Positions 183-56,598 of a stretch of DNA of 64,000 bases are shown in pieces; position 1 is the first letter of the stretch; each line of letters starts with the position of its first letter. Position numbers and translations under genes: made by a program. This DNA comes from Candidatus Doudnabacteria bacterium (GTDB taxonomy: Bacteria > Patescibacteriota > Doudnabacteria > UBA920 > 2-01-FULL-46-14): the NCBI GenBank assembly GCA_023246055.1, contig JAHFJD010000001.1, forward strand, positions 2,781 through 66,780, in the 5' to 3' direction. A model generated the notes under the pieces. It saw only the letters and a program-made list of their open reading frames with translations, did no database searches and was not told the DNA's origin.

Positions 183-1278
183 CTCCCACCCCCTCTCCAT
201 CTCCCCCTCGGGCAGGGGGAGAAATTGCACCCGCGTCTATATTGAATATTTGAGAATTGTGCGGCAAAAAATCCTTGATCTCTTCCAAGTGTGCAGTGGT
301 GAAAAACACTTGCTCAAAGGATTTGAGAAACTCGAGGAGTTGCTGCTGGTGAATGCTATCAAATTCGGAAAACACGTCATCGAGGAGCATAATAGGGGTG
401 TGACCGGATTTCACTAAATACTCCTTTTCCAAAATTTTTAAACCTAAAGTAATCGCTCGCAGCTGCCCACGTGAAAAATATCCGACGATTGGCTGATCGC
501 CTGCCATCAAAACCTCAAAATCGTCGCGATGCGGACCAATTGAGGTTGTTAATCTCTCCATGTCATGAGGTCGGGTAATCTCAAGTCTCCGCACAAATTC
601 GGACTTTTCAGTATTCCCACCTGCGTGATAAACGATTTGGACATTAAGTATCTGGGGAGATAGTGTTGTTAAAATTTCTCTCAAGTGTATATTCCCAAAA
701 TCTACAAATTCTTGTCGATACTTGGTAATGACGCTCCCGAAATCGGCCAGTTGTTCATCCCAAATCTCCACTGCCGTGTTTTGTGCCAAGGCCAAGTTGC
801 GCTGTTTCAAGGCTTGGTTATATTGCTGCATTGCATGCCGATATTCTGCTGAAACAGCAGATAAAGTTTCATCGAGGAAGCGGCGCCGGCCTGCTGGTGA
901 ATGGGTCAGCAGATTTAAATCCTCTGGCAAAAAACTGATCATCGCTTGTTGTCTTGCAAACTGATCTCGGGACACAGCTTGGCCATTTATTTTCAACTGC
1001 TGTTTTGATCTGCCTTCGGTCCTTTCCAAAAAAACCTCCACAACCCTACCATCACTCATTGTCAGCCTTAGACGAAAAAAAATCTGCTTGTTATTAATCA
1101 GTTGGTCAAGTGCGCTCGTCGGAAATCGGCGCAAGGCTAAACCGAAATATAAGGCTTCTAAAAAATTAGTTTTCCCCGACCCGTTTGGTCCGCTCAAAAT
1201 CACAAAACCAGGATTGAACGTCAACTCCAGATTTGATAGGTTGCGGAAGTTTTGAAAAGCCACTTGCTTTATATACAT
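172..1278 (-). CDS. recF: DNA replication/recombination protein RecF
   Basis: 368 aa, Walker A GPNGSGKTNFLEA, RecF signature, position between dnaN and DUF721; C-terminus extended by GC-rich hairpin repeat (ISPPARGGDGEGVGD). Confidence 0.85.
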   Translation of the reverse strand: MYIKQVAFQNFRNLSNLELTFNPGFVILSGPNGSGKTNFLEALYFGLALRRFPTSALDQLINNKQIFFRLRLTMSDGRVVEVFLERTEGRSKQQLKINGQAVSRDQFARQQAMISFLPEDLNLLTHSPAGRRRFLDETLSAVSAEYRHAMQQYNQALKQRNLALAQNTAVEIWDEQLADFGSVITKYRQEFVDFGNIHLREILTTLSPQILNVQIVYHAGGNTEKSEFVRRLEITRPHDMERLTTSIGPHRDDFEVLMAGDQPIVGYFSRGQLRAITLGLKILEKEYLVKSGHTPIMLLDDVFSEFDSIHQQQLLEFLKSFEQVFFTTAHLEEIKDFLPHNSQIFNIDAGAISPPARGGDGEGVGDVQ

Positions 1279-1370
1279 AAACTATGACCCCCTCTCAATC
1301 TCCCCCTCACGAGGGGGAGAAGAAAGAGGAGGCCTTACTAATCCATATACAAAATTCAATATTCGATATT

Positions 1371-5755: not shown

Positions 5756-6208
5756 GTGGAAGAAAAATACGGGACGATAAAACAGATCATCGCAGAGATT
5801 CTGCAACATATGGGGATCGAGGCAGAAATTGAAAACCGGTTTCTAGAAGAAACCGTGATTTTTAATCTCCGAACCCCGGATTCAGGCATGCTCATCGGCC
5901 AATATGGGGCAAACCTCGCCGCATTCCAGTATCTCGCCAGGCTCTTGGCGTTTCGGCGTTTGGGCGAGTCTGTGCGCTTTGTGGTAGATGTCGAAGATTA
6001 TAAAAAAACTCGCGAAGAATTTTTGCGAGAGTTGGCGAGGCAGGCCGCTGATCGCGTGCGAGAGACCAGACAAAGCTTACTCTTGAAGCCGATGTCAGCC
6101 TATGAACGCCGAATGGTGCACGCGGAGATCGGCAACATGCCAGATGTGATGAGCGAGTCAGCTGGCATTGATCCGGAACGAAGAGTGTTAATCAAATTGA
6201 AAATCTAG
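5756..6208 (+). CDS. jag: Jag/KhpB R3H-domain RNA-binding protein
   Basis: 150 aa, KH/R3H-like C-terminus (YERRMVHAEIG), canonical position after yidC. Confidence 0.75.
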   Translation: MEEKYGTIKQIIAEILQHMGIEAEIENRFLEETVIFNLRTPDSGMLIGQYGANLAAFQYLARLLAFRRLGESVRFVVDVEDYKKTREEFLRELARQAADRVRETRQSLLLKPMSAYERRMVHAEIGNMPDVMSESAGIDPERRVLIKLKI

Positions 6209-7654
6209 AAACGGCAAGACGTAGACGAGCCAGAAGAGGATAGAGAGATCGTTTTTGAAATAGGAGACGTCGACCAGACTGTGGAGCACGATCATTGCCA
6301 TGCCGGCTCCGGCAGCGAGGGCTAACCCCCTCTTGATCTCCCCCTCACGAGGGGGAGAAATTTGTTTTTGCCCCTCCTCGTGAGGGGGGGAAGGGGAGGT
6401 AACAGTTTTGTATATTTTTTTGTAAAATAGAATCAATAGCCCAATGATACTTAGCAATCCTAAAAGCCCGGTCTCCACCCAAAAGGTCAGAAAAAAATTG
6501 TGCGGATAGTTTTGAATGACCCGATCCGGGCCGAGGGGGTAGTTTTTGTAGGCTTCACGAAAACCCGTTAGCCCTACCCCAGTTATGGGATGATGCTTCA
6601 ATATATCCACTGCCGCAGTCCACAGCACATAACGATTTTCTTTGGATGGGTCAGCATGAGTGAGATTTAGAAGTTTGGCGCGGGAGACGGGGATGGCAAA
6701 GACAAGAGTGATAATAACCAATAGCGATAACAATAACTTTGGGGTGCGCGACCTCTCCTGGCCTTCGGCCACCCTCCCCTCGCCAGGGGAGGGGATAAGG
6801 AATGCGACCCCAACAAGGGTCGCCGCCAAGGCCAGCCAGCCCGCGCGGGAAAATGTTAAATAAAATGCAACCAGTCCAAATCCGAGCGCAGTCCACCTCA
6901 ATTTGTTTTTGGGCAGCATGATTAGCATGGTGAGAACGGGCCCTAAGAGCAAGGCCAATCCATTGGGGTGGTTTAGTAATGACACGATTCTGCGCTCCGC
7001 AAAACTGACGTCCCACCAGGAGGGCGGGAGATTTTGCAAGGTCAGATATTGATAAACTCCAAACGCAGATAAATACAAAACCAGGACGGTCATGCTTTGG
7101 AATAATTTTTTCAATTTTTCTTGCGAATCAATAGTAAGGCGCAGCAAGAAATAAAAGAGTATCGGTTCAAAAAAATAAGCTTTGAAAATACCAGCGGCTT
7201 TGAGCGTGTCTGGGGCGATGAATACAGAAATGACGGCCGCAAGGAGGAAGAGAATAATAAAAATATATTGGGCCACCCCCCACCTCACCTCCTCGCCTCG
7301 CCTTCGCTCGGACGAAGCGCCCCCCACAAGGGGGGAGGAATCCCTGGTTTTTATTCCTTCCCCTTGTGGGAGAGGGTTAGGCCTGCCCGCCATTGGCCTT
7401 GAGCCTTCAGGCGATTGGCAGGCGGGGAGGGGCGAAAGGATTGAAAGTATCCGCGGGTTTCGAATTAAAGCAATAACTTCCACTGCCGCCAATAGCAAAA
7501 TCATCCCTTCGAGAAATGTCGCGGGGACTCCGAATACTTGAAAACGAATTTGATAACTCGGCAGTCCCAGGACAATGAGATAAATCCCCCACTCTCGCCG
7601 GTAAAGACTTGCCACCAAAAAACCAATTAGACTGATTATTATCCAAGGGTTCAT
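6188..7654 (-). CDS. O-antigen ligase/Wzy_C family polytopic membrane protein carrying three in-frame GC-rich repeat insertions
   Basis: 488 aa; HPHNFFLTFWVETGLLGLL Wzy_C-like motif; insertions encode SPSPPHEEGQKQISPPREGE, IPSPGEGRVAEGQERS and a ~55-aa G/P/R-rich segment. Confidence 0.6.
   Translation of the reverse strand: MNPWIIISLIGFLVASLYRREWGIYLIVLGLPSYQIRFQVFGVPATFLEGMILLLAAVEVIALIRNPRILSILSPLPACQSPEGSRPMAGRPNPLPQGEGIKTRDSSPLVGGASSERRRGEEVRWGVAQYIFIILFLLAAVISVFIAPDTLKAAGIFKAYFFEPILFYFLLRLTIDSQEKLKKLFQSMTVLVLYLSAFGVYQYLTLQNLPPSWWDVSFAERRIVSLLNHPNGLALLLGPVLTMLIMLPKNKLRWTALGFGLVAFYLTFSRAGWLALAATLVGVAFLIPSPGEGRVAEGQERSRTPKLLLSLLVIITLVFAIPVSRAKLLNLTHADPSKENRYVLWTAAVDILKHHPITGVGLTGFREAYKNYPLGPDRVIQNYPHNFFLTFWVETGLLGLLSIIGLLILFYKKIYKTVTSPSPPHEEGQKQISPPREGEIKRGLALAAGAGMAMIVLHSLVDVSYFKNDLSILFWLVYVLPFLDFQFD
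6337..6390. repeat. GC-rich hairpin repeats (family 1) TCTCCCCCTCACGAGGGGGAGA plus second hairpin CCCCTCCTCGTGAGGGGGGG, inside CDS
   Basis: Perfect inverted repeats directly visible; same motif recurs at >=14 sites. Confidence 0.8.
7255..7440. repeat. Composite GC-rich insertion (family-1-related hairpins plus CCTGCCCGCC/GGCAGGCGGG motif) inside Wzy-like CDS
   Basis: ~185 bp of >65 % GC inside an AT-rich gene; contains CCCCCCACAAGGGGGGAGG hairpin and GCCTGCCCGCC...GGCAGGCGGGG. Confidence 0.6.
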
Positions 7655-12781: not shown

Positions 12782-12825
12782 AGATCCATTATAGCAAACT
12801 TTGGCAAGGTTTGTCAACCCCCTCT

Positions 12826-13323
12826 TCATCTCCCCCTTGATAAGGGGGAGAAAGAGTGAGGGTGATTGGCTCCGCAGATGGCCAGGGCTAGGGCGTCGGC
12901 CGCGTCATCGGGCTTGGGGATGGATTTCAGGTTCAGAAGAGTTTTAACCATGTACTGAACCTGTTTTTTGTCGGCCTTGCCGTAATTGGTTAAAGAGTTT
13001 TTAACTTGCAGGGGGGTGAATTCTGTGATGGGGATTTTATTTTGTCTCGCGCACAGCAACACCACACCGCGTGCCTGTGCGACCGCGATTGCAGTTTTTA
13101 CATTGTTATAAAAAAATACAGATTCCACCGCGACCTTGCCTGGCTTGTGTTTGCGGATTAACGAATTTAAATCCTTGTAAATTTCTTCGAGTCGTTCTGG
13201 TAGTGAATTATTTTTCGAAGTTTTCAGGCAGCCATATTCAATCGCGCGCAATTTGCCTTTTGCGGATTCAATGACTGCGTAACCAGTTGTGGCAGTGCCG
13301 GGATCAATACCGAGTATTATCAT
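12826..13323 (-). CDS. ruvC: Holliday junction resolvase RuvC
   Basis: 165 aa, MIILGIDPGTATTGYAV N-terminus, RuvC fold residues. Confidence 0.9.
   Translation of the reverse strand: MIILGIDPGTATTGYAVIESAKGKLRAIEYGCLKTSKNNSLPERLEEIYKDLNSLIRKHKPGKVAVESVFFYNNVKTAIAVAQARGVVLLCARQNKIPITEFTPLQVKNSLTNYGKADKKQVQYMVKTLLNLKSIPKPDDAADALALAICGANHPHSFSPLSRGR
12829..12851. repeat. GC-rich hairpin repeat (family 1) TCTCCCCCTTGATAAGGGGGAGA at ruvC 3' end
   Basis: Perfect 9-bp stem seen directly. Confidence 0.8.
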
Positions 13324-24799: not shown

Positions 24800-26068
24800 A
24801 TGCCCGAACAGACCATGGAGGAGCTCCTCCTCCAGTCAAAAATCAAAATCCTCGCTGCCGGCGATGTGGTCAAAGGCCGCATTTTGAGCGTGGGCAAAAA
24901 CGAAGTCTACGTGGACGTGGACGGCATCGGCATTGGCGTGGTGCGCGGCCGCGAGCTTTATGATGACGAGACGATTCTTTCTTCCCTAAAAGCCAATGAC
25001 GAGGTATTTGCCTCGGTGATCGAGGTAGAAAACAAAGAGGGCAACATTGAGCTATCTTTCCGCAAAGCCGGTCTCGAACGAGTTTGGCAAACTTTGCGGG
25101 AGAAGATGGAGAGCCGCGAGGTGATCCGAACCAAGATTCTGGAAGCGAACAAGGGCGGTCTCATGGTGCGCATCAACAACGTGGTTGGTTTTTTGCCTGT
25201 ATCGCAGCTCGCCCCCATGCATTATCCGCGGGTGGAGGATGGCGATAAAAACAAGATTTTGTCAGTCTTGCGGGGTTACGTGGGACAGGATTTTGATGTT
25301 CGAGTGATTACCGCCGAGCAGGACGGGGAGAAATTGATTGTTTCGGAACGAGCAGTAATCGAAAGCGAGTTGTTGCAAAAAATCGGCAAACTCTCAATCG
25401 GTGACATAGTAGAAGGTGAAATCACAGGAGTCGTGGATTTTGGGGCATTCGTGAAATTTGGGGATGGCCTCGAGGGGCTCGTGCATATCTCCGAGCTCGC
25501 TTGGCAACGGATTGAAAATCCCAAGGACATAGTGAAGGTCGGGCAAAAGGCCAAGGCCCAGATTATTGCCATTGATAATGATCGCATTAGTTTGTCCCTG
25601 AAGCGGCTCCTTAAGGATCCGTGGGAAGACGCAGTGAAAAAATATAAAATTGGGCAGATGGTCAAAGGCCGAGTTTTGAAACTCGCGACCTTTGGAGCGT
25701 TCGTTGAGCTGGATCCGGAAATCCATGGCCTCGCGCATCTTGGGGAGTTGTCTGTGGAAAAAATTGCCGATGTCAGTGCAGTCATCAAAGAAGGCGAAGA
25801 GCGAGAGTTTCGCATCATTTCTATTGAGCCAGCAGATCACCGATTAGGGTTATCTTTGAAACCGCCCGCCCGGCAATCGCCTGAAGGCTCAAGCCAGATG
25901 GCGGACGGGCCAAAAACAGAGGCACGGACTGAGGCCAAAACGGAAGAAACAAAAACTCCAACATCCCCTGAAAGCGGGGTCGGAGCGTCGACCGAGAGTG
26001 GAATCGCAGTTCCGACCGAAAGCGTCGGCGAACAACAAGCTCCCGAAGCAGCGAAAACCCCGGCCTAA
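24800..26068 (+). CDS. rpsA: 30S ribosomal protein S1 (four S1 domains) with low-complexity C-terminal tail
   Basis: 422 aa; repeated S1 domains; tail PKTEARTEAKTEETKTPTSPESG. Confidence 0.85.
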   Translation: MPEQTMEELLLQSKIKILAAGDVVKGRILSVGKNEVYVDVDGIGIGVVRGRELYDDETILSSLKANDEVFASVIEVENKEGNIELSFRKAGLERVWQTLREKMESREVIRTKILEANKGGLMVRINNVVGFLPVSQLAPMHYPRVEDGDKNKILSVLRGYVGQDFDVRVITAEQDGEKLIVSERAVIESELLQKIGKLSIGDIVEGEITGVVDFGAFVKFGDGLEGLVHISELAWQRIENPKDIVKVGQKAKAQIIAIDNDRISLSLKRLLKDPWEDAVKKYKIGQMVKGRVLKLATFGAFVELDPEIHGLAHLGELSVEKIADVSAVIKEGEEREFRIISIEPADHRLGLSLKPPARQSPEGSSQMADGPKTEARTEAKTEETKTPTSPESGVGASTESGIAVPTESVGEQQAPEAAKTPA

Positions 26069-26117: not shown

Positions 26118-26170
26118 CGGTCTGGTGCCCGAGCAGTTAGGGAGCGGTCTGCCTGCCCGCCACGGCCTGA
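26118..26170 (+). other. Partial duplicate of tRNA-Cys 5' half (38 nt identical to positions 1-38 of the intact gene)
   Basis: GGTCTGGTGCCCGAGCAGTTAGGGAGCGGTCTGC repeated verbatim at 26171. Confidence 0.6.
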
Positions 26171-26241
26171 GGTCTGGTGCCCGAGCAGTTAGGGAGCGGT
26201 CTGCAAAACCGCGTAGACGGGTGCAACTCCCGTCCAGACCT
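26171..26241 (+). tRNA. tRNA-Cys (anticodon GCA)
   Basis: 71 nt; acceptor GGTCTGG/CCAGACC, anticodon stem GCGGT/ACCGC, loop CTGCAAA; unusual T-loop TGCAACT. Confidence 0.7.
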
Positions 26242-26300
26242 TGGGCGATGGCAGGCGGGCAAAACCGCCATTCACGGGTGCAACTCCCGTCGTGGCCTCC
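26242..26300 (+). other. Degenerate tRNA-Cys-like 3' fragment with encoded CCA
   Basis: Shares ACGGGTGCAACTCCCGTC T-arm with the intact gene; ends CGTGGCCTCCA; lacks D-arm. Confidence 0.45.
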
Positions 26301-27444: not shown

Positions 27445-28599
27445 TTACCTGACGAAGTTTATCAGTTTTTTTCCGAGTTTAAAGAGTTTATAATAATTTT
27501 TGTCCAAAATCAAATCCCAGGTCCCGGTGTAATGTTTCTCGAGCCCGGTCTCCCCCGCCCGCAACGCCTGCGGCGTAGCGCTGGCGGGCAGGCCTACTGT
27601 GACATACCGCGATTTGAAACGGGTGATGCCTGACCAGGAGTGGGATTCTGACGCGTCCGGCGGCGCGATGCCCCACATGTCATAATATTTTTTGCCAGCA
27701 GCTTTGGCCGCGCGAATGGCTTCCCAGAGGACCAGACTTGGGACATTAGCATTGCGCATCTCTGCCGAAGACGCAGCGTAAAGATAAGTGCCGCTGTCGC
27801 CGAATAGCATGATAATCGTCGCGGCCAGAGTTTTACCTTCGTATTCGCCAGTGAGGAGTATGGCGCGGGGAGAGAACTCACCCTTACCCTCTCTTTGTAA
27901 AAGAGAGGGAGTCTCCCCCCCTTTAATTAAAGAGGGGGTCGGGGGGAGTTCGGCATACATAAAATGTTCTCTAAACTTTTCAAACCTTTTCCTGGGCCAG
28001 ACAGTGATACCATCCCGTTTCGAGGTTTCCGCTATCAACTCCAGGAATTTTTCGAACCCTGCACTATCTCCTGTTTTATCCTCGACGCGCACGCCTTTTT
28101 TCATGGCCAGTCTGATGTTGTAGCGGGATTTTTCATGCATTTTCGACATTAGCTGGTCTTCGGGTTTTGTCAGATCAACAAGCACTGTGTCTTCCGGCTC
28201 CATTTGTTTCTGCAGAATTTCTGGTTTTTGAAATTTGAAATTTGAAATTTGAAATTTATTTTGATAAGGTGGGCTTATCCTGACCAGCACAGCATTTTCA
28301 ACAGCCGCTATCGTTTTTAATTCCGCAACAAGTGTTTCCCAAACAGCCTTATCAAAATTACCCACCGGCCCCTTTGCCACCTCCAAATAGGTTTTACCGA
28401 GATATAGAGAGCGCACGACGATTTGGGCCGCAGCGAGCCATTTGCCATCATCCCCCATCACCACAACACGGTGGATTTTGTTTCCCAGTGCGGCCTGAAA
28501 CTCACCCCACTGCCAAGATTGCAGAAATGACGAGGGTGAAGAATTTTCTATAACGAATTTATTCCATTGATCTTTGTCTGAGGCGATTATAATTTCCAT
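27445..28599 (-). CDS. FemAB-family peptidoglycan bridge-forming aminoacyltransferase
   Basis: 384 aa; FemAB-like N- and C-terminal acyltransferase halves; contains GC-hairpin insertion (SPPTPSLIKGGETPSLLQREGKG) and a 7-bp tandem repeat. Confidence 0.75.
   Translation of the reverse strand: MEIIIASDKDQWNKFVIENSSPSSFLQSWQWGEFQAALGNKIHRVVVMGDDGKWLAAAQIVVRSLYLGKTYLEVAKGPVGNFDKAVWETLVAELKTIAAVENAVLVRISPPYQNKFQISNFKFQKPEILQKQMEPEDTVLVDLTKPEDQLMSKMHEKSRYNIRLAMKKGVRVEDKTGDSAGFEKFLELIAETSKRDGITVWPRKRFEKFREHFMYAELPPTPSLIKGGETPSLLQREGKGEFSPRAILLTGEYEGKTLAATIIMLFGDSGTYLYAASSAEMRNANVPSLVLWEAIRAAKAAGKKYYDMWGIAPPDASESHSWSGITRFKSRYVTVGLPASATPQALRAGETGLEKHYTGTWDLILDKNYYKLFKLGKKLINFVR
28227..28257. repeat. 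Heptanucleotide tandem repeat (GAAATTT)x4.4 inside FemAB CDS
   Basis: tttgaaatttgaaatttgaaatttgaaattt; encodes KFQISNFKFQK. Confidence 0.8.
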
Positions 28600-29341: not shown

Positions 29342-29859
29342 ATTTGTGATTAAACGAATTCCTTTCTTGACCCTCTCGTTACAGTTATGGGTCTTGATCA
29401 ATAATTCGTGAAGCTTAGGTGTTGCCTACCCTATCCGGTTAGGGATAGGGCACGCAACCTGCCATCTTAACATAAAATGCTTTTTTGGTCAAGAGTCGCA
29501 GGTTGCAAATATTGGTTTTTTCTTTGTTTACAAACTAAAAACCGCTACAATTTGCGGTTTTTCGAAACATTGAACAATCTTATTATAGCAGATTTATACC
29601 TATTAGTCAATGCGCACTCTTCCGTGGCTACACTGATAGTGCACAACGAGACTCCTGATCTCTAGCCTGGTGATGTGGCCTTAACCCCCTCTCCCATTTG
29701 GGAGAGGGCGGGGGTGAGGTTTGGAAGACCGCTACATAAGCCGAAAGTCCTGTGGTTTTTAATATCTCCGCTACCTCACCCTAACCCTCTCCGTTGTCGG
29801 AGAGGGAATTCAGACAGTTTGCCAGCTATCAGAAAATTGTGCATGATCAGTTTGACTAT

Positions 29860-29927
29860 GACCCACTGAGGGATTCGAACCCCCGACTCCCGCCGTGTAA
29901 AGGAAGAACTCCCCGCCTGCCAAAGCC
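29860..29927 (-). other. tRNA 3'-half-like fragment (T-arm GGGGGTTCGAATCCCTC + acceptor strand) without matching 5' acceptor
   Basis: Minus strand ...GGCGGGAGTCGGGGGTTCGAATCCCTCAGTGGGTCA; no complementary 5' strand found. Confidence 0.35.
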
Positions 29928-29930
29928 TGG

Positions 29931-30004
29931 TGGCCATTGCTGGGTTCGAACCAGCGACCTTTCGGATGTAAACCGAATGCTCTAACCAGCTGAGCTAAAT
30001 GGCC
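29931..30004 (-). tRNA. tRNA-Val (anticodon UAC), CCA encoded
   Basis: GGCCATTTAGCTCAGCTGGTTAGAGCATTCGGTTTACATCCGAAAGGTCGCTGGTTCGAACCCAGCAATGGCCACCA. Confidence 0.85.
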
Positions 30005-30040
30005 AATGGCGGGCAGGTACCACTGAGTTAAGTGCGCGAA

Positions 30041-30205: not shown

Positions 30206-31690
30206 ATGACTTCTAAAAAACTTTTTTTTCTTCTGGTTTTTCTGCTTCCCATCAGCACTGGGAAAGTGTTTTTTTCGGAGCAGAGTTTTTTTTATGGTTA
30301 CCATATTTTTTATCATAGTTTTTGGGTATTCTTGACAGATATTGTATTTTGTGGTTTGATGTTGGCTTGGTTATGGGAAACCTTGACCCCCACTTCATCT
30401 CCCCCTCATGAAGGGGAGAAAATAGAAGGAGTCCCACACCAAATCACCTCAGCTTTCCTAAAAGACAGAGTTTATCAGGGATTGTTGTTTTTTTGGCTTA
30501 TTTTAGCGATTTCAACAATTCTTTCACGTGAAATGTTGCTGTCTTGGTATGGATTGGCTAGGTTTACTGAATATTTTTTCGTCTTCATCTATATCAGGGA
30601 AAATTTTCACATTTCACGTGAAATGAAGTCTTTTTTTTGGCTTATTTTAGCGATTTCTCTACTTGAAACTGGTCTTGGTATAGCCCAATACGTAAATCAA
30701 AGTTCCCTGGGTTTGAAATATCTTGGAGAATCACTTCTAAAACCAGGCATGCCAGGCGTAGCAGAATTTATTTCTCACGGAATTGGGAGCTGGCAAAACA
30801 TTTCACATGAAATGTTGGTTATGAGAGCTTACGGAACATTGCCTCACCCAAATATTTTGGGAGTTTTTCTGTTTACTGGACTGCTTGCCAATATTTGGCT
30901 TATTTATGGCACTTTGAAAGGGTTTCGATCATGGGAAATCTCTTTATTTCCAGCCCTGATCCTGGTTTCCACAGGAATGGTGTTAACTTTTTCACGCGCA
31001 GTTTGGATAGTTATTGCCCTGGTTTTGCTGAGTTTACTTGTTATGCTCCGCATCCGCAAATATCGGGTTTTTGAGACAATGCGCAGCGGGCGAAGAATGG
31101 CAGAACAGCAGGGTATTTATCTGCCCAAACATATCGCAGCCCTTATTCTGGCTTTGCTTGTGGCTTTGGGTTTGAATTTTTTTCTGTTTGGCGAGCAAAT
31201 TAAGGATCGAATAGTGGGGCGAGGTGTGGCAGCTATCGCAGAACAGGAAAGTTTTGTGGATCGCCAGCATTTCAACTCCATTTCACGTGAAATGATCAAA
31301 ACCCATCCACTGCTCGGCGTTGGGCTGCGAAATTTCGTAGCAAGAATGGATGAGTTTAACAGGCCTGCCCGCCATGCTTCGCAAGGCGATGCGGGCGGGG
31401 GAGAGCGCTTATTCCCTCAACAGCACCAGCCAGTGCACAATATTTATTTCCTGGTAGCTGCGGAAACTGGACTTGCTGGTCTCGCGGCATTGTTGTTTCT
31501 ACTCTATAATATTGTGCGACACGCAATCCAAAAGATCAGAGCCGGGGATAGGGGAGAGCGGACCATCTTGCTTGTATTGTTTTTCGGATTTCTATGTTTA
31601 GGGCTCGTTGACCACTATTTTGTTTCGATTCAGCCATCAGCCATGCTGTTTTGGATAGTGGCGGGACTCGTCTCTGCCAAAAGCGTATAA
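30206..31690 (+). CDS. O-antigen ligase/Wzy_C family polytopic membrane protein (paralogue of 6188-7654) with repeat insertions
   Basis: 494 aa; HNIYFLVAAETGLAGLAALLF Wzy_C motif; SSPPHEGEKIEG from GC hairpin; four copies of TTTCACGTGAAATG. Confidence 0.6.
   Translation: MTSKKLFFLLVFLLPISTGKVFFSEQSFFYGYHIFYHSFWVFLTDIVFCGLMLAWLWETLTPTSSPPHEGEKIEGVPHQITSAFLKDRVYQGLLFFWLILAISTILSREMLLSWYGLARFTEYFFVFIYIRENFHISREMKSFFWLILAISLLETGLGIAQYVNQSSLGLKYLGESLLKPGMPGVAEFISHGIGSWQNISHEMLVMRAYGTLPHPNILGVFLFTGLLANIWLIYGTLKGFRSWEISLFPALILVSTGMVLTFSRAVWIVIALVLLSLLVMLRIRKYRVFETMRSGRRMAEQQGIYLPKHIAALILALLVALGLNFFLFGEQIKDRIVGRGVAAIAEQESFVDRQHFNSISREMIKTHPLLGVGLRNFVARMDEFNRPARHASQGDAGGGERLFPQQHQPVHNIYFLVAAETGLAGLAALLFLLYNIVRHAIQKIRAGDRGERTILLVLFFGFLCLGLVDHYFVSIQPSAMLFWIVAGLVSAKSV
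30398..30419. repeat. GC-rich hairpin repeat (family 1) TCTCCCCCTCATGAAGGGGAGA inside CDS
   Basis: Seen directly. Confidence 0.8.
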
Positions 31691-34798: not shown

Positions 34799-34800
34799 TC

Positions 34801-34880
34801 TACTACGAAATACGAAACGGTACGAACATACGAAAACGTACCTTTCGTACTTTCGTAAAAATTCGTAATTTCGTAGTATT
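34801..34880. repeat. TACGAA/TTCGTA-rich palindromic element (family 3), copy A, ends at ATG 34881
   Basis: tactacgaaatacgaaacggtacgaacatacgaaaacgtacctttcgtactttcgtaaaaattcgtaatttcgtagtatt; exact reverse complement of copy at 46097-46173. Confidence 0.8.
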
Positions 34881-35744: not shown

Positions 35745-35821
35745 AACTTTTTTCCCTCAGGCCTCGCCAAGCGCAGCGGGACGGGCAGGCGTGGGGAGGG
35801 TTAGGGAGAGGTCGAATAACT

Positions 35822-49438: not shown

Positions 49439-49447
49439 ATTATAAAT

Positions 49448-50876: not shown

Positions 50877-53761
50877 TTCAGAGATCTCGCTAAATATTGT
50901 CCCGTGTAGGACCGTTTCACGCGGGCGACTTCTTCTGGCGTGCCTTCCGCCACAATCTCACCGCCCTTATCCCCGCCCTCGGGTCCCAGATCAATGACCC
51001 AGTCAGCGTATTTGATGACATGCAGATTGTGTTCGATCACGATCACAGTGTTGCCCTTGTCCACGAGCTTTGAAAGCACAGTGAGCAAGCGCTTCACGTC
51101 CTCGAAATGCAGTCCGGTGGTCGGTTCATCGAGGATGTACAGGGTTTTGCCGGTTTGGGTGCGGGCCAGTTCCGTGGCGAGTTTGATGCGCTGGGCTTCC
51201 CCGCCCGACAGGGTCGTGGCGCTTTGGCCGAGGTGCATGTAGCCAAGGCCGACCAGGGATAATACGTCGAGTTTGCGGTAAATAATGGGAATATTGCGGA
51301 AAAAGATTCGCGCCTCATCCACAGTCATTTCCAGGACATCAGAGATATTTTTGCCTTTGTAATGAATGTCTAGGGCTTCTTTGTTGTAACGTTTGCCCTT
51401 GCATTCTTCACAAGCCACATAGACGTCCGGCAGGAAATGCATTTCGATCTGGATCACGCCATCTCCAGCGCAAGCCTCGCAACGGCCACCTTTGACATTG
51501 AATGAAAATCGCCCGGGCTCATAGCCGCGCATTTTGGCTTCCGGTGTTTCGGCAAATAAATCACGGATATAGGTAAACACCCCGGTATAGGTTGCGGGGT
51601 TGGATCGCGGGGTGCGCCCGATTGGGGATTGATCGATGTTGATGACCTTGTCAATGTTATCAAGACCCAAGATTTTTTTGTGCTCACCGGGCTGGTCTTT
51701 GGCGTTATAGAAATAAGCGGATAAAGCCTTGGCCAAAATGTCATTGAGCAGAGTGGATTTTCCCGAACCGGACACGCCAGTGATACTGATAAATTTTCCC
51801 AAAGGGATGCTGACGTCCAAATTTCTCAAGTTGTGTTCGCGAGCGCCATAGATGGTGATTTTTTTGCCGTTACCGGTTCTGCGCCGGGCCGGGATCGGGA
51901 TGCTTTCCTGCCCCGCAAGGTAACGACCGGTGAGTGATGTAGGATTTTCTTTGATGTCAACTGGAGTGCCCGCAGCTACGACCTCACCTCCGTGTTTGCC
52001 AGCTCCGGGCCCAATGTCCACAACCCAGTCAGCGCTCGCTATGGTATCCTCGTCATGCTCCACAACGATCACGGTATTGCCGAGATCACGGAGTGTTCGC
52101 AGGGTATCGAGTAAACGATCATTGTCCCGTTGATGCAATCCGATCGACGGTTCGTCGAGAATATACAGGACTCCGGTCAGGCCGGACCCGATTTGGGTGG
52201 CGAGCCTGATGCGCTGGGCTTCCCCGCCCGAGAGCGTGTCAGCGCCGCGGTTCAGAGTTAAATATTCCAGACCGACATTGTCGAGGAAATTCAGCCGGGA
52301 CCGAATTTCCTTGATGATTTGCTTACCGATTTTCAAATCCTTCTCGGACAGCTGACCTGCGAGGAGTTCAAAGAATTTCCGCAGTGCATCTACAGTGAGG
52401 CTTGATACATCCATAATGGATTTGCCCGTCTCGCCTCGGCTCGCCGAGGTCGGATCCATAACCGTGACCGCTAATATTTCGGGACGGAGTCTTTTACCCT
52501 GACATGTGGGGCAGGTTTTGAGGCGCATGTATTGCTCAATTTCTGACCGCATGTAGTCCGAATCGGTTTCGCGATATCGGCGCATAAGATTTGGCACCAC
52601 GCCCTCAAAATCGAGATTGTTGTCTTTGGAGCCATAAAGAATAATGTCGAGAAATTTTTTGTTGAGTGTTTTTACCGGGACATTGGCCGAAAAGCCATGA
52701 GCTGTCGCGACGTCATCGATGATCCGATCATACCAGGATAACCTTGCCGTAGTTTTGCTCCACGGACGAATCGCGCCTTCAGCGAGGGACAATCGCGGAT
52801 TGGGAATCACGAGTTCTGGATCAACCTCAAGTTTGGTCCCGAGTCCCGTACAATCAGGACAAGCGCCATGCGGCGAGTTGAAGGAAAAATTTCGCGGATG
52901 AAGTTCTGCCAAACTGACATGTCCTTCGGGGCAAGCGAATTTCTGTGAAAGAGTTAGCGTCTGGTTTGTATCTGGAAAATAGACGACCGCGGTTTCATTT
53001 CCCAGATCGAGAGCAGTCTCCAAAGAGTCGCTGATGCGAGCCCGATCATTGCGCTCGATAGTCAAGCGATCCACCACCACATCCACTGAATGTTTTTTCT
53101 TTTTGTCGAGATCGGTTGCGAGTGCTTCTGCGATATCTATGAATGTGCCGTCGATTCGCACTCTGGCATAGCCGGCTTTTTTTATTTCCTCGAAGACGTG
53201 TTTGTGTTCTCCCTTGCGGTCGGATATGAAAGAGGCTAGGAGCATGAGTTTGGTGCCGCGGGGGTAGTCCAGGATTTGGTCGACCATGGCGGTCACGGTT
53301 TGGCCGGCAATTTTTTTCCCGCAAACTGGGCAATGCGGCACGCCGATCCGCGCAAACAGTAACCGCAAATAGTCATAGATCTCCGTAACCGTCCCCACTG
53401 TCGAGCGCGGATTATGGGAGGCAGATTTTTGGTCAATGGAAATCGCCGGACTAAGACCCTCGATTTGCTCGACGTCTGGTTTGTCCATGAGCCCTAAAAA
53501 TTGCCTGGCATAAGCCGAGAGACTCTCCACATATCGCCTCTGGCCCTCGGCATAAATCGTGTCAAAAGCCAAAGAGGATTTTCCAGAGCCGGAGATGCCG
53601 GTGAATACGATGAGTTTGTTACGCGGCAAATCCAGGTCAATGTTTTTGAGATTGTGAACCTTGGCCCCGCGGATTTTGATCAAACCAGCGCTCCCCCCTT
53701 CTGGCCTTAAAATAAGGGAGGAATGAGGCGGGTTATTAGATTTAGAATTACGTTTGGTCAT
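50873..53761 (-). CDS. uvrA: Excinuclease ABC subunit A
   Basis: 962 aa; two ABC ATPase modules, zinc fingers, UvrA signatures. Confidence 0.95.
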
Positions 53762-54588: not shown

Positions 54589-56598
54589 ATGGCAAACTTG
54601 GCCATAAAACTCAAAAATCTTCCTCAAGCCCCCGGGGTGTATCTGTTCAAAAACAACCGCGGCGAGGTTTTGTACGTTGGTAAAGCTAAAAATCTGAAAA
54701 ATCGCGTCAGGTCATACTTTCAGAATGGCAGAGATTTCGAAGCGCGACTCACGGTCATGAAGCAAAACATTGCGGATCTTGATTACACAGTGGTGTCCTC
54801 GGAAATCGAGAGCCTGATGCTCGAAAATAATCTCATCAAGCAATATCAGCCACGATTCAATGTGCTCATGCGAGATGATAAAAATTATCAGTTTATCAAG
54901 CTCGATTATTCTTTTGAAATCCCACAGATTTACACAGTGCGTCAGGTTCCCCTCCTCGTGAGGAGGGGTCAGGGGAGGTTAACCCCCTCCCCGCCCGCCT
55001 CGCAAGCGAGAGCGTTGCGGGCAGGTTCCTCTCCCCCTCACCTGCCCGACTTCGTTTGGGCGAAGTCCAGGCGGGCGGGCGAGGGGGAGAAACTTTCAAG
55101 GTATTTCGGGCCTTATACCTCCAGCCTGGCAGTCAAACAAACTTTGCACCTGTTGAAAAGCATTTTCCATCTCTGCCGCAACAAAAAGATCATTACCAAA
55201 CCCTGTTTCGCCTATCAACTCGGCCGTTGCAGTGGGGTGTGTGTTGGCAAGGTCTCATTACCTGAGTATCTTGAGACTTTTAAGCAAGTCGAAGGTTTTC
55301 TCAAGCATCGGCAAACCGAGATGATGAAAATTCTGCGCGGGGAAATGACCACTGCCGCCACGCGCCACAAATTTGAGAGGGCAGCCATGATCCGGGATAC
55401 GATTCGGTCACTAGAATATATGTGGCAAAAGCAAAAAATCGTGACAGCGAGAAATGAAAACCACGATTATCTCGGGTTGTTCAAACTGGCAACACAAGCG
55501 GTGGTGTGTTTGTTTGTGGTGCGGGGAGGGAGACTCATCCATACTGAACATTTTGAACTGGTGCATGACAATTCTTCATCACCGGAGATTATGGAGCGAT
55601 TTATCACCCAGTATTATGAACAAACCAGCGATATTCCTCAGGAGCTTATCCTCTCTGAAGAATTACCCCGCGTCCCACTCCTGGAAAAATTTCTCACTCG
55701 GCTCACAGGTCAGCGGATTACATTGATTGTTCCGCACCGCGGCAAAAAATCTGGATTGTTAAAACTTGCTGCGGAAAATGCCAGACTCTATCACGAGCGG
55801 CAAATGCCGGATTTTCAAAAAGAAAAACCCAAGCAAACACTCCATGCTTTATCGAGGTTTCTTGAACTTCCAAAAATCCCGATGCGCATTGAAGGTTATG
55901 ACATTTCCAACATCCAAGGAATCAATCCAGTCGGATCGATGGTAGTGTTTACTGCTGGCGTGCCGGACAAAAGCCAATATAGAAAATTTAAAATCAGACT
56001 CCCAGAAACCCCCAATGATTTTGCTATGATGCGCGAGATGCTGGAGCGGAGATTTCGTCACCTCCCCCTCATGAGGGGGAGGATGGGTGGGGGTCGCGGA
56101 GCAAATACACCCACAACCTTCCCTCCCCCTCCTCACGAGGAGGGGGACAATACCTCTTGGCTTCTCCCCGACCTCATCATTATCGACGGCGGCAAAGGGC
56201 AGCTAAATGCTGCTGTTTCCATACTGAAACACAATGATCTGAAAATTCCTGTGATAGCGCTTGCGAAACGACTCGAAGAAATTTTTTTGCCGGGGCGAAA
56301 GAATCCCCTGGTGCTTCCCCCAGGCAACCGGGCGTTATTTCTCCTTCAGCGTATTCGGGATGAGGCTCATCGTTTTGCTGTGACATTTTTCCGGAGCCGT
56401 CACCGGCGCGCTCAAATTTATTCTCGCCTCGAGGATATTTTTGGGGTTGGACCAGTAACTCGAAAAAAATTGATCAAAAAATTCGGCAGCGCTATAGCGG
56501 TCAGACGCGCTTCTCTTGACGCTCTTACGGCAGAGATCGGTCCGCGACTTGCAAAAAATATCAAGGAGCAACTGCCCCCATATCAAGCGAAGCCCTGA
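54589..56598 (+). CDS. uvrC: Excinuclease ABC subunit C carrying two in-frame GC-rich repeat insertions
   Basis: 669 aa; GIY-YIG N-terminus (GVYLFKNNRGEVLYVGKAKNLKNR), UvrC Endo-V/RNaseH-like and HhH C-terminus; insertions at 54940-55095 and 56060-56160 encode P/G/E-rich segments. Confidence 0.9.
   Translation: MANLAIKLKNLPQAPGVYLFKNNRGEVLYVGKAKNLKNRVRSYFQNGRDFEARLTVMKQNIADLDYTVVSSEIESLMLENNLIKQYQPRFNVLMRDDKNYQFIKLDYSFEIPQIYTVRQVPLLVRRGQGRLTPSPPASQARALRAGSSPPHLPDFVWAKSRRAGEGEKLSRYFGPYTSSLAVKQTLHLLKSIFHLCRNKKIITKPCFAYQLGRCSGVCVGKVSLPEYLETFKQVEGFLKHRQTEMMKILRGEMTTAATRHKFERAAMIRDTIRSLEYMWQKQKIVTARNENHDYLGLFKLATQAVVCLFVVRGGRLIHTEHFELVHDNSSSPEIMERFITQYYEQTSDIPQELILSEELPRVPLLEKFLTRLTGQRITLIVPHRGKKSGLLKLAAENARLYHERQMPDFQKEKPKQTLHALSRFLELPKIPMRIEGYDISNIQGINPVGSMVVFTAGVPDKSQYRKFKIRLPETPNDFAMMREMLERRFRHLPLMRGRMGGGRGANTPTTFPPPPHEEGDNTSWLLPDLIIIDGGKGQLNAAVSILKHNDLKIPVIALAKRLEEIFLPGRKNPLVLPPGNRALFLLQRIRDEAHRFAVTFFRSRHRRAQIYSRLEDIFGVGPVTRKKLIKKFGSAIAVRRASLDALTAEIGPRLAKNIKEQLPPYQAKP
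54940..55095. repeat. Long GC-rich composite hairpin insertion (family 1 + CCCGCCCGCC/GGCGGGCGGG arms) inside uvrC
   Basis: ttcccctcctcgtgaggaggggtcaggggagg...ccccgcccgcctcgcaagcgagagcgttgcgggcagg...caggcgggcgggcgagggggagaaac. Confidence 0.7.
56061..56148. repeat. Two adjacent GC-rich hairpin repeats (family 1) inside uvrC: CCTCCCCCTCATGAGGGGGAGG and TCCCCCTCCTCACGAGGAGGGGGA
   Basis: Seen directly; encode HLPLMRGRMGGGRGANTPTTFPPPPHEEGD. Confidence 0.8.

What the first reader, a model, noticed from the sequence alone, without database searches (positions are those of the whole stretch)
6188..7654. Wzy/O-antigen-ligase-like membrane protein carrying three independent repeat insertions; paralogue at 30206-31690 also hit
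Gene 6188-7654 contains hairpin copies at 6337-6390 and 6766-6790 plus a ~185-bp GC-rich block at 7255-7440. All are in-frame, giving about 100 extra residues in predicted loops. The paralogue (30206-31690) carries another family-1 hairpin. Surface polysaccharide polymerase/ligase genes appear to be preferred or tolerated targets.
Basis: partly seen in the sequence, partly recalled or inferred. Interest (0 to 1): 0.5.

Follow-up and report, generated by a model that had tools for sequence, protein, structure and literature searches.

The report
In-frame palindromic repeats in Wzy gene
An intact membrane-enzyme gene of a tiny "candidate phyla radiation" bacterium has absorbed at least five short GC-rich palindromic repeat elements that are read through as floppy cytoplasmic loops, which is the selfish-DNA behaviour known from Rickettsia, seen here in a new bacterial group.

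Summary
Gene 6188-7654 (-) is an intact 488-aa Wzy_C/WaaL-fold protein of a Doudnabacteria-like (CPR) genome. It carries three insertion sites, and site 1 is a nest of at least three elements. All are in frame and add about 85-100 Pro/Gly/Glu/Arg/Ser-rich residues. The elements belong to dispersed GC-rich palindrome families. These also occur in intergenic DNA and in frame in recF, ruvC, an S1-domain gene, a femAB-like gene, uvrA, uvrC and the paralogue.

AlphaFold places all three sites in low-confidence loops between TM helices. By the positive-inside rule these loops are cytoplasmic. Across 57 orthologues, all six outside loops keep a near-constant length. Four of the five cytoplasmic loops carry different insertions of up to 53 aa. 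The syntenic neighbours yidC, jag, PBP1a and tyrS stay collinear.

So the gene family is a recurrent, tolerant recipient, but it is not the only target. This behaviour matches Rickettsia palindromic elements and intragenic REP dimers. I call it a new member of a known kind in a new phylum.

A by-product may be more interesting. The paralogue carries four in-frame parS-like palindromes (core TTTCACGTGAAA, read as [I/L]S[R/H]EM). The motif was confined to this gene family in six genomes.

The parts
6188..7654 (-). Wzy1: intact 488-aa Wzy_C / WaaL-fold 12-TM membrane protein. It lies downstream of PBP1a and converges on jag.
   Evidence: ORF; Pfam PF04932 E 1.9e-24; AF2 pTM 0.80; the only significant PDB fold match is WaaL 7TPG; 118 invariant alignment columns retained.
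7274..7453 (-). Site 1, aa 68-127, loop TM2/TM3 (inferred cytoplasmic). Composite GC-rich block that encodes RILSILSPLPACQSPEGSRPMAGRPNPLPQGEGIKTRDSSPLVGGASSERRRGEEVRWGV.
   Evidence: Absent from or much shorter in most orthologues; pLDDT 41-54 with no secondary structure; codon-threaded comparison with P0005 and P0002.
7379..7429 (-). Site 1 element (a): 51-nt family-3 hairpin (CCTGCCCGCC...GGCGGGCAGG), peptide LPACQSPEGSRPMAGRP. Present in the query only.
   Evidence: Missing in P0005, which shares the flanking element; roughly 85% identical, by eye, to an in-frame copy in the S1-domain gene at 25865-25910, same frame, QSPEGS; arm motif 11 matches against 1.4 expected.
7322..7378 (-). Site 1 element (b): long inverted repeat of two hairpins, AACCCTCTCCCACAAGGGGAAGG / A-rich spacer / CCTCCCCCCTTGTGGGG. 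Peptide NPLPQGEGIKTRDSSPLVG.
   Evidence: Shared, with near-identical DNA, with orthologue P0005, so this insertion is older; inverted repeat I2; long stem in the fold.
7298..7321 (-). Site 1 element (c): about 24-nt hairpin CGCTTCGTCCGAGCGAAGGCG, peptide GASSERRR. Present in the query only.
   Evidence: Absent in P0005 at this exact point. No convincing second copy in the window, 5 weak matches against 2.0 expected, so its family is unassigned.
6743..6793 (-). Site 2, aa 288-304, loop TM8/TM9 (inferred cytoplasmic). Hairpin CCCTCCCCTCGCCAGGGGAGGG plus small hairpin TGGCCTTCGGCCA. Peptide PSPGEGRVAEGQERSRT.
   Evidence: Hairpin; empty site in P0005 and a different double-hairpin element in P0002; baseline loop is 9 aa (GLFTxHRKK) in 37 of 57 orthologues; pLDDT below 50 at residues 295-301.
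6324..6401 (-). Site 3, aa 418-443, loop TM10/TM11 (inferred cytoplasmic). Inverted dimer of family-1 units (6324-6361 and 6367-6401) around an A-rich spacer. Peptide VTSPSPPHEEGQKQISPPREGEIKRG.
   Evidence: nhmmer hits of both units; folds as one hairpin, -48.3 kcal/mol, z -4.5; shared with P0002, empty in P0005; on the + strand it is the best terminator-like site, 129 nt after the jag stop codon.
30206..31690 (+). Wzy2: the paralogue, 494-aa Wzy_C protein.
   Evidence: Pfam E 1.5e-15; AF2 pTM 0.87; orthologues of 462-595 aa with many loop inserts.
30385..30431 (+). Family-1 unit in Wzy2. Peptide LTPTSSPPHEGEKIEGV, in the TM2/TM3 loop, the equivalent of Wzy1 site 1.
   Evidence: nhmmer E 5.8e-8; absent in the closest orthologues P0122 and P0123; coil at residues 61-75 with pLDDT about 58-67.
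31362..31403 (+). Family-3 hairpin in Wzy2. Peptide RPARHASQGDAGGG, in the extracytoplasmic domain just before the conserved HQPVHN motif.
   Evidence: Arm match; sequence and translation; 12-aa gap in P0122 and P0123; coil with pLDDT about 52.
187..225 (+). Family-1 unit forming the C-terminal tail and stop region of recF (ISPPARGGDGEGVGDVQ*).
1286..1323 (+). Intergenic family-1 unit between dnaN and recF. Its 22-nt core is identical to the one in Wzy1 site 3.
12816..12864 (+). Family-1 unit, a full symmetric hairpin, supplying the last 12 codons and the stop codon of ruvC and a possible start codon for the next gene.
   Evidence: The RuvC Pfam profile ends at aa 150 of 165.
25865..25910 (+). 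Family-3 unit in frame in the C-terminal tail of an S1-domain protein (PPARQSPEGSSQMADG).
27536..27601 (-). Family-3 unit in frame in the femAB-like gene (GLPASATPQALRAGE). A second, double-hairpin insert lies at 27880-27955 (ELPPTPSLIKGGETPSLLQREGKG).
54944..55100 (+). Composite insert of about 50 aa in uvrC between the GIY-YIG region and YFGPY. It contains family-1 and family-3 units.
56058..56152 (+). Two inverted family-1 units in uvrC, a 31-aa insert in the endonuclease domain.
   Evidence: nhmmer; in the alignment to solved UvrC structures (2NRT, 3C65), query residues 495-525 have no counterpart.
53689..53735 (-). Weak hairpin element in the N-terminal 25 codons of uvrA ([18 protein letters not shown]).
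   Evidence: This assignment is weak (nhmmer E 0.6).

Best explanation
Gene 6188-7654 encodes a functional WaaL/Wzy_C-fold glycan ligase or polymerase of a Doudnabacteria-like CPR bacterium. The gene has been colonised repeatedly by short, GC-rich, non-autonomous palindromic repeat elements. These are REP-like units of about 36-50 nt, often present as inverted dimers of about 80 nt. The same families are scattered through intergenic DNA and other genes of this genome.

Insertions are filtered by selection. Only copies survive that have a length divisible by three, lie in one of the two stop-free frames, and sit in protein segments where extra disordered Pro/Gly/Glu/Arg/Ser-rich peptide does no harm. 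In this 12-TM enzyme those segments are the short, non-conserved cytoplasmic loops TM2/3, TM8/9 and TM10/11, plus TM6/7 in relatives. The outside loops that carry the invariant motifs never change length.

The elements are therefore transcribed and translated as loop extensions. Older copies are inherited: element (b) is shared with P0005 and site 3 is shared with P0002. Newer copies nest next to or inside older ones: elements (a) and (c).

Shown here: the elements are dispersed repeats; orthologues differ in presence or absence; the frame and the ORF are intact; the inserts lie in loops; and the length pattern differs by loop side. Inferred: transposition-like mobility, since no transposase was found; cytoplasmic sidedness; actual translation; and neutrality.
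For: Dispersed families are far above chance. The nhmmer catalogue finds 10 family-1 copies. An identical 22-nt core occurs in intergenic DNA at 1299-1320 and in Wzy1 at 6337-6358. Element (a) is roughly 85% identical, by eye, to a copy in an unrelated gene, read in the same frame.

Codon-threaded alignment with the two closest orthologues shows filled against empty sites and nested additions.

Across 57 orthologues, the 6 outside loops are near-invariant in length, and 4 of the 5 inside loops expand to as much as 37-53 aa, with at least 3-5 unrelated peptide alleles per loop. K+R density is 0.27 in inside loops against 0.09 in outside loops.

In the AF2 model the inserts are coil with pLDDT about 41-63, lying between helices. 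The fold match is to WaaL 7TPG.

Inserts are 65% P/G/E/R/S against 21% in the rest of the protein.

The syntenic neighbours yidC, jag, PBP1a and tyrS are collinear in the same genomes, whereas Wzy1 shows 30-90 residues of indels.

The same behaviour is seen in recF, ruvC, the S1-domain gene, the femAB-like gene, uvrA and uvrC.

Element sites make up 13 of 22 in coding DNA, against about 85% expected from coding density, which is consistent with purifying selection.

The precedent is in-frame RPEs and intragenic REP dimers that encode 20-30 aa, including in uvrA and uvrB (PMC3733652; PMC10969869).
Against: No transposase (RAYT/IS200-like or other) is encoded in the 64-kb window. No target-site duplications are recognisable.

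The nearest orthologues are only about 60-68% identical, so no recent empty and filled allele pair is available.

Translation of the inserts is inferred from frame conservation only.

One insert in the paralogue (31362-31403) lies in the extracytoplasmic domain, so the restriction to cytoplasmic loops is not absolute.

Sidedness rests on the positive-inside rule and the known WaaL topology. It was not computed with a dedicated topology predictor.
Confidence: 0.8

Rival explanations
1. Some copies have been co-opted. The site-3 dimer, read on the + strand, acts as the intrinsic terminator of the convergent yidD-yidC-jag operon. More generally, the stable mRNA hairpins placed just after pairs of TM helices might pause ribosomes or transcription to aid membrane insertion.
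For: On the + strand, hairpin 6337-6358 followed by AATTTGTTTT is the top terminator-like site, 129 nt after the jag stop codon. The orthologue P0002 keeps the same dimer with a T-run on the antisense strand. In all five dimers examined, which represent three independent events, the A-rich spacer is on the sense strand, so the T-run never faces the host gene's own transcription.
Against: P0005 lacks site 3 altogether and still has the convergent gene. The sample is tiny and partly non-independent. The orientation bias is equally expected from simple counter-selection of sense-strand terminators. Most copies have no T-run.
Confidence: 0.12
2. The extra segments are lineage-specific low-complexity loops that arose in place by slippage or GC-biased drift, or they are ancestral loops lost elsewhere. 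They are not inserted mobile DNA.
For: Several loop peptides look like diverged versions of one another across orthologues, for example the ...GE.L.ERS series in loop TM8/9. This shows long vertical inheritance after the initial event.
Against: The same DNA sequences occur in unrelated genes and in intergenic regions of the same genome. The same loop holds unrelated hairpin sequences in different orthologues. Insert GC is about 75% in a genome region of about 47% GC.
Confidence: 0.04
3. The gene is a decaying pseudogene, and the inserts are damage that happens not to have broken the frame yet.
For: There are at least five insertion events in one 1.4-kb gene. No expression data exist.
Against: The ORF is open over 488 codons, and all 118 invariant family columns are retained. 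Every insert is a multiple of three and stop-free. Across the roughly 13 coding sites in the window, the chance of all preserving frame is about (1/3)^13. Inserts avoid every conserved segment. Two inserts are old enough to be shared with orthologues of about 60-68% identity.
Confidence: 0.03
4. The inserts are removed before the mature protein is made, as RNA-level excision of the hairpins or as intein-like elements.
For: They form very stable hairpins in the mRNA.
Against: If they were excised, there would be no reason for lengths to be multiples of three or for the used frames to lack stop codons. No Rfam family matches. The peptides have no intein or splicing motifs and are only 8-26 aa long.
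Confidence: 0.01

Closest known systems
Rickettsia palindromic elements (RPE; Ogata et al. 2000 Science, 2002 Genome Res, as summarised in PMC10969869 and PMC3733652)
   Same: Both are dispersed palindromic repeats found in frame inside many unrelated, apparently functional genes. They are translated as extra peptide at tolerated positions. Both occur in small genomes with few intergenic landing sites.
   Different: The taxon differs (CPR/Doudnabacteria-like rather than Alphaproteobacteria). Sequence relatedness to the RPE families was not tested here. The units are shorter (36-50 nt; dimers about 80 nt, against about 100-150 bp). These units are GC-rich and encode Pro/Gly/Glu/Arg-rich coil.
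Intragenic REP units and REP dimers (GTAG/CGTC-tagged REPs; Di Nocera et al. 2013, PMC3733652)
   Same: Both are 20-40-bp GC-rich stem-loops that often occur as inverted dimers encoding 20-30 aa. Both are found inside known genes, including DNA-repair genes (uvrA, uvrB there; uvrA, uvrC, recF, ruvC here). Both sets of authors argue the inserts lie in loops or linkers or at protein termini.
   Different: The window's copies have no conserved GTAG or CGTC tag; the head motif is CTAYGACCCCCTCT. No RAYT gene is seen in 64 kb. The intragenic fraction here is high, about 13 of 22 sites.
Bacterial MITEs with in-frame intragenic copies (ERIC/RU elements, PMC2759123; review PMC10969869)
   Same: Both are non-autonomous, form hairpins, are dispersed, and occasionally fuse in frame with host ORFs.
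   Different: The units here are much shorter than typical MITEs (70-300 bp). No TSDs are detectable, and no cognate IS is known.
WaaL O-antigen ligase (PDB 7TPG) / Pfam Wzy_C
   Same: The host protein shares the 12-TM fold and a conserved extracytoplasmic loop region with invariant Arg and His residues.
   Different: Sequence identity is 15% and a profile search finds no PDB hit. The substrate and the ligase-versus-polymerase role are unknown. The organism probably has no LPS.

Membership tests
Pfam Wzy_C (PF04932) / WaaL-fold glycan ligase-polymerase | Profile match above the curated threshold | tested here: met
   86.6 bits against a cutoff of 31.7 for Wzy1; 57.7 bits for the paralogue.
Pfam Wzy_C (PF04932) / WaaL-fold glycan ligase-polymerase | Polytopic fold of about 12 TM helices resembling WaaL | tested here: met
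   AF2 pTM 0.80. The only significant Foldseek PDB match is 7TPG_B: E 3e-4, probability 1.00, TM-score 0.47/0.55.
Pfam Wzy_C (PF04932) / WaaL-fold glycan ligase-polymerase | Catalytic periplasmic Arg/His residues equivalent to those of WaaL | tested here: inconclusive
   Invariant R221/R222, R270 and H385 lie in the conserved outside loops. Residue-level equivalence to WaaL was not established, and a profile search against PDB sequences found nothing.
Rickettsia palindromic elements (RPE) | Multi-copy dispersed palindromic repeat | tested here: met
Rickettsia palindromic elements (RPE) | In-frame insertion in ORFs of unrelated function that stay intact | tested here: met
   Eight genes in the window. 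uvrC was checked against solved structures. Wzy1 and Wzy2 were checked against orthologues.
Rickettsia palindromic elements (RPE) | Sequence membership in the RPE-1 to RPE-10 families of Rickettsia | not tested
   No RPE sequences were available in the tools. The different phylum, unit length and composition make membership implausible. The claim here is 'works like', not 'is a member of'.
REP / REPIN (RAYT-mobilised) | Imperfect GC-rich palindrome of 20-40 bp, frequently in inverted dimers | tested here: met
REP / REPIN (RAYT-mobilised) | Conserved GTAG or CGTC tetranucleotide at one end | tested here: not met
   The window's copies start with CTATG, GCTA, CTTG or GTCA followed by ACCCCC. A few metagenomic relatives end in ...GGGGGTCGTAG (L099, L186), so a degenerate tag cannot be excluded.
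REP / REPIN (RAYT-mobilised) | Cognate RAYT (Y1 transposase) gene in the genome | not testable with these tools
   None among the ORFs of the 64-kb window. The rest of the genome is not available.
MITE | Terminal inverted repeats plus target-site duplication | tested here: inconclusive
   The dimers have long inverted arms. No TSD is recognisable, and no recent empty site is available.
Chromosomal parS (for the palindromes noticed in the paralogue) | Match to the 16-bp consensus TGTTTCACGTGAAACA | tested here: met
   The inner 12 nt are identical in 23 of 24 sites from six genomes. One site is 16/16 and several are 14-15/16. The window's own sites are 12-13/16. The consensus is taken from PMC7383237 and PMC7022226.
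Chromosomal parS (for the palindromes noticed in the paralogue) | Few sites per genome, clustered near oriC | tested here: met
   All sites lie in one gene about 26-27 kb from dnaA. There are none elsewhere in the window, in the flanks of five orthologous loci, or in 0.89 Mb plus 0.47 Mb of other loci.
Chromosomal parS (for the palindromes noticed in the paralogue) | Cognate ParB in the genome that binds the sites | not testable with these tools
   There is no ParB in the window. A ParB homologue (E 1e-48) exists on one CPR-like metagenomic contig that carries the same family-1 repeat (L101). Binding is untested.

The most novel reading that the evidence does not exclude
These CPR elements may be more than passively filtered junk. 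They may have a genuine target preference, for instance for the A-rich Lys-codon tracts that encode cytoplasmic loop bases, or for pre-existing copies. That would explain why the same four loops of one enzyme family were colonised again and again by unrelated elements. Some copies may also have been co-opted, for example the site-3 dimer as terminator of the convergent jag operon. Together with the parS-like cluster embedded in the paralogue, this would make the two Wzy_C genes dedicated 'palindrome-hosting' coding sequences in which DNA-level signals and protein loops co-evolve.
Probability: 0.15. Interest if true: 0.6.

Novelty: new member of a known kind. Interest (0 to 1): 0.42.

Why it matters
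The finding extends translated selfish palindromes, the RPE and intragenic-REP phenomenon, to the Candidate Phyla Radiation. I found no report of it there in four literature searches.

The orthologue series also works as a natural insertion-tolerance map of a WaaL-fold enzyme. Every outside loop is frozen in length, and four cytoplasmic loops accept 10-50 extra residues. That is useful for engineering tags or for topology work.

There are practical consequences too. These elements inflate and diversify CPR protein sequences, they break assemblies, and they can mislead annotation and alignment.

The parS-like cluster found in the paralogue would, if confirmed, locate the centromere of these uncultured genomes. 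It would also explain a 'conserved protein motif' (SRE) as a DNA signal.

Tried and rejected
- **Rfam scan:** the whole window at gathering thresholds returned only tRNAs and nothing for the hairpins.
- **Transposase search:** about 50 ORFs of the window were scanned against Pfam. None is a RAYT or IS200-like transposase. The only recombinase is a large serine recombinase at 58830-60389.
- **Target-site duplications:** none could be recognised from flanks of copies or from the orthologue comparison.
- **GTAG/CGTC REP tags:** not present in the window's copies.
- **Metagenome scan for the family-1 core:** most of the 120 or more contigs belong to a different composite repeat (GTGAGCGACCCCCTCGCTCGCTTCGCTCGCG plus hairpin) in soil contigs of about 56% GC. 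In those contigs it is mainly intergenic. They therefore say little about the CPR family; only about 9 loci share the window's head motif.
- **Element (c):** no convincing second copy in the window.
- **Profile search of the Wzy1 alignment against PDB sequences:** no hit.
- **Cluster look-up for the source organism's name:** no names returned.
- **Canonical 16-mer parS with up to 3 mismatches:** only one window site matched, so the parS reading rests on the invariant 12-mer core and on the orthologues.
- **ParB and Soj search:** tblastn with sequences written from memory found ParB only on L101, and not in the window or in any Wzy locus.
- **'Cytoplasmic loops only' rule:** rejected as absolute, because the paralogue's family-3 insert is in the extracytoplasmic domain.
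Full report
**Context.** The window starts at the chromosomal origin region, with recF 172-1278, dnaN 1371-2465 and dnaA 2675-4102, all on the minus strand. Homologues of the target gene and its neighbours are annotated as Candidatus Doudnabacteria or Patescibacteria. The neighbourhood tyrS - PBP1a - wzy - jag - yidC - yidD is syntenic in about 19 related loci. GC content is about 47% overall.

**Observation.** The ORF 6188..7654 (-) is intact and 488 aa long. It matches Pfam Wzy_C at E 1.9e-24, and the paralogue 30206..31690 (+) matches at 1.5e-15.
- 6337-6358 and 6371-6390
- 6772-6793
- a GC-rich block at about 7274-7453

The core of 'family 1', CCCCCTCNNGAGGGGG, occurs 8 times in the window against 0.26 expected. 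A profile built from the copies finds ten good family-1 units. The unit is about 36-41 nt: a head, (CTAYG)ACCCCCTCTnnn, followed by the 22-nt palindrome TCTCCCCCTCAYGAGGGGGAGA. Some copies carry an inverted head on the far side and so form a symmetric hairpin of about 50 nt.

Two further families are above chance:
- CCCTCTCCC..GGGAGAGGG, 4 matches against 0.02 expected
- 'family 3', with arms CCTGCCCGCCA.. / ..GGCGGGCAGG, 11 matches against 1.4 expected

**Anatomy of the three sites.** I threaded the DNA of the two closest orthologues on a protein alignment. These are P0005 (locus L081) and P0002 (locus L082), at about 60-68% aa identity.
- **Site 3 (6324-6401, 26 codons).** This is an inverted dimer of family-1 units around an A-rich spacer. 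It folds as one long hairpin, -48.3 kcal/mol, z -4.5. It is shared with P0002 and absent from P0005.
- **Site 2 (6743-6793).** It is empty in P0005, where the loop reads TDYKKK. In P0002 the site is occupied by a different double-hairpin element.
- **Site 1.** This is a nest. A double hairpin (b, 7322-7378) is shared with P0005 with near-identical DNA. Two additions are specific to the query.
  - Element (a), 7379-7429, is a 51-nt family-3 hairpin. By eye it is roughly 85% identical to an in-frame copy in an S1-domain gene at 25865-25910, and both are read in the same frame: QSPEGS.
  - Element (c), 7298-7321, is a 24-nt hairpin.

The gene has therefore received at least five insertions at different times. 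The three segments total 103 residues. They are 65% P/G/E/R/S, against 21% in the rest of the protein.

**Are the inserts in loops?** The AlphaFold2 model has pTM 0.80. It shows each segment as coil with pLDDT about 41-63 between helices: 66-113, 287-303 and 420-436. The only significant match to solved structures is the WaaL O-antigen ligase 7TPG.

I aligned 57 orthologues and measured every loop.
- The six loops I assign to the outside vary by no more than 6 residues (four are exactly constant). These loops carry the invariant motifs YQIRF/TFLE, PPSWW..RRI.SLLNHPN, FSRAGW, NR..LW...QNYPHNFF and D..YFKNDL.
- Four of the five inside loops reach 53, 37, 46 and 46 residues, from baselines of about 10-19, 10, 9 and 7.

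The sidedness is inferred. K+R density is 0.27 in the 'inside' loops and 0.09 in the 'outside' loops of an insertion-free orthologue. The established WaaL topology also has cytoplasmic termini and periplasmic catalytic Arg/His residues; this point comes from my own knowledge of the 7TPG work.

The expanded loops hold several unrelated peptide alleles in different orthologues:
- Loop TM8/9: PSPGEGRVAEGQERS, NPLNPPYIKGEV..SPPLKLRGGW and SPPARGGDEEGVGGERS.
- Loop TM10/11: SPPHEEG single or double, PSPQGRG...GEDKG, and SPELSAEDRL.

So the same loops were hit independently.

**Is the Wzy gene special?** It is not the only target. In-frame copies also form or interrupt these genes:
- the recF C-terminus
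- the ruvC C-terminus and stop codon
- the tail of the S1-domain gene
- a femAB-like gene, at two sites
- the uvrA N-terminus (weak assignment)
- uvrC, at two sites

For uvrC, the alignment to solved structures shows 31 query residues (495-525) with no counterpart.

Even so, Wzy is clearly more permissive than its neighbours. In the same genomes yidC, jag, tyrS and PBP1a align end to end with indels of at most 15 aa, and mostly 0-2. Wzy1 shows 30-90 residues of indels. The paralogue family behaves the same way, at 462-595 aa with many loop inserts.

Within the window, 5 of about 22 insertion sites fall in the two Wzy genes, which occupy 4.6% of the sequence. This gives a binomial p of about 0.003, but the test is post hoc. 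Overall, 13 of 22 sites are in coding DNA, against about 85% expected. That is a depletion consistent with selection.

**Mechanism.** The best reading is that these are REP/RPE-like non-autonomous palindromes. Their surviving intragenic copies are the ones that preserve frame and sit in dispensable loops.
- Two of the three frames of the family-1 core are open in either orientation, giving SPP[HR]EGE and LPL[MTV]RGR.
- The third frame usually contains TGA (sequence inspection).

Mobility itself is inferred. No transposase is encoded in the window, and no target-site duplication is visible.

The core hairpin also occurs in 120 or more metagenomic contigs. Most of those belong to a different composite repeat in soil contigs of higher GC, where it is mostly intergenic: 6 of 49 hits lie in long ORFs, against 64% for random positions. 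About nine contigs carry the window's head motif.

**Comparison with known systems.**
- In-frame palindromic repeats are known from Rickettsia (RPEs).
- Intragenic REP units and dimers that encode 20-30 aa are also known, notably in uvrA and uvrB (PMC3733652; PMC10969869).
- The present elements work in the same way. They lack the GTAG/CGTC tag, they are shorter than RPEs, and they come from a phylum where I found no such report.

Hence my verdict: a new member of a known kind.

**A possible extra layer.** On the + strand, the site-3 hairpin followed by AATTTGTTTT is the best intrinsic-terminator-like site in the region. It lies 129 nt after the stop codon of the convergent jag gene. In all dimers examined, the A-rich spacer is on the sense strand. 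This could reflect co-option. It could equally reflect simple counter-selection of sense-strand terminators.

**By-product in the paralogue.** Wzy2 contains four copies of (A/C)TTTCAC(G/A)TGAAATG, read in frame as [I/L]S[R/H]EM. TTCACGTGAA occurs nowhere else in the window.

I fetched five orthologous loci. In each one, every SRE tripeptide is encoded by exactly TTTCACGTGAAA. That makes 23 of 24 sites exact across six genomes. The motif is absent from the flanks of those loci and from 0.89 Mb plus 0.47 Mb of other loci.

All 30 family members have 1-6 [FILVM]SRE motifs, with a mean of 3.3. The expectation from composition is 0.03, and the Wzy1 family averages 0.05.

The 12-mer is the core of the chromosomal parS consensus TGTTTCACGTGAAACA (PMC7383237 and PMC7022226). 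One orthologue site is a perfect 16/16 match. The gene lies about 26-27 kb from dnaA.

I therefore read these palindromes as an origin-proximal parS cluster embedded in frame in the gene. ParB binding is untested, and no ParB gene lies in the window. A ParB homologue does occur on one CPR-like contig that carries the family-1 repeat. I found no paper that mentions parS, ParB and Patescibacteria together.

**Verdict.** The phenomenon is a clean CPR example of a known class, so it is of moderate interest. The loop-by-loop tolerance map and the parS-like cluster in the paralogue are the parts most worth following up.

Noticed in passing
window 30520-30535, 30610-30625, 30799-30814, 31279-31294 (inside Wzy2); L203, L204, L205, L206, L207: parS-like palindromes with core TTTCACGTGAAA are embedded in frame as [FILV]SRE in the paralogue. 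In six genomes, 23 of 24 sites have an identical core, and one orthologue site is a perfect TGTTTCACGTGAAACA. The motif is absent everywhere else examined. All 30 family members carry 1-6 such motifs. This is probably an origin-proximal centromere (parS) cluster, so the 'conserved SRE motif' would be a DNA signal rather than a protein signal.
   Followed up: yes
window 26119-26300: Nested structure at tRNA-Cys. An intact tRNA-Cys (26170-26242) is flanked by family-3 arms (CCTGCCCGCCACGGCC / GGCGATGGCAGGCGGG). These in turn are flanked by an exact 34-nt copy of the tRNA's 5' half (26119-26152) and a diverged 3' half (26261-26300). Removing the arm-bounded insert would restore an anticodon stem-loop with a GCA anticodon. 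It looks like a family-3 element inserted in the anticodon loop of a tRNA-Cys gene, with a complete copy nested inside it. Rfam did not call this tRNA at its gathering score; ARAGORN did.
   Followed up: partly
window 29860-30017: Two tRNA-Val(TAC) genes are called overlapping by 8 nt (29860-29935 and 29928-30004). An exact family-3 arm, CCTGCCCGCCATTGGCC (30001-30017, minus strand), runs into the 5' end of the second gene. Three more hairpin elements lie in the adjacent 29401-29860 spacer.
   Followed up: no
window 34798-34897, 41862-41949, 46104-46133, 49355-49439: Four intergenic regions carry arrays of TACGAA(A)/TTTCGTA heptamer-like repeats (direct-repeat families D4, D5, D7). They lie next to the bactofilin/DAGK genes, the CBS gene, dnaJ and hrcA. 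They could be operator or promoter motifs. Three TrmB-family regulators are encoded in the window.
   Followed up: no
window 58788-60389: A large serine recombinase (Resolvase + Recombinase + Zn_ribbon_recom, 58830-60389, minus strand) abuts or overlaps tRNA-Leu(CAG) at 58879-58965. A partial repeat of the tRNA 5' part lies at 58788-58823. This may be an integrated mobile element at the tRNA.
   Followed up: no
window 30488-30513 and 30632-30657: An exact 26-nt direct repeat lies inside Wzy2. It encodes FFWLILAIS at the start of two TM helices, and each copy sits next to a parS-like palindrome. This suggests an internal duplication or gene conversion.
   Followed up: no
L083-L202 (metagenome contigs): The 22-nt core TCTCCCCCTCAYGAGGGGGAGA is also part of a different, abundant composite repeat in soil contigs of about 56% GC: GTGAGCGACCCCCTCGCTCGCTTCGCTCGCG + core + TTA.... 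In those contigs it is mostly intergenic and often sits at contig ends.
   Followed up: partly
L101:1038-1900: A ParB homologue (E 1e-48 to a B. subtilis Spo0J sequence written from memory) lies on a CPR-like contig. Two family-1 units sit at or just past its 3' end (CCCCTCCTCATGAGGAGGGG ... GACCCCCTCTTAATCTCCCCCTCATGAGGGGGAGAA). No parS-like site is on that contig.
   Followed up: partly
window 39082-39131 and 35753-35811: Further GC-rich hairpin-like segments are possible additional elements. One lies inside IF-2 (KSRGGGAELGIPASAGD, within the GTPase region). One is intergenic, after the DAGK-like gene.
   Followed up: no
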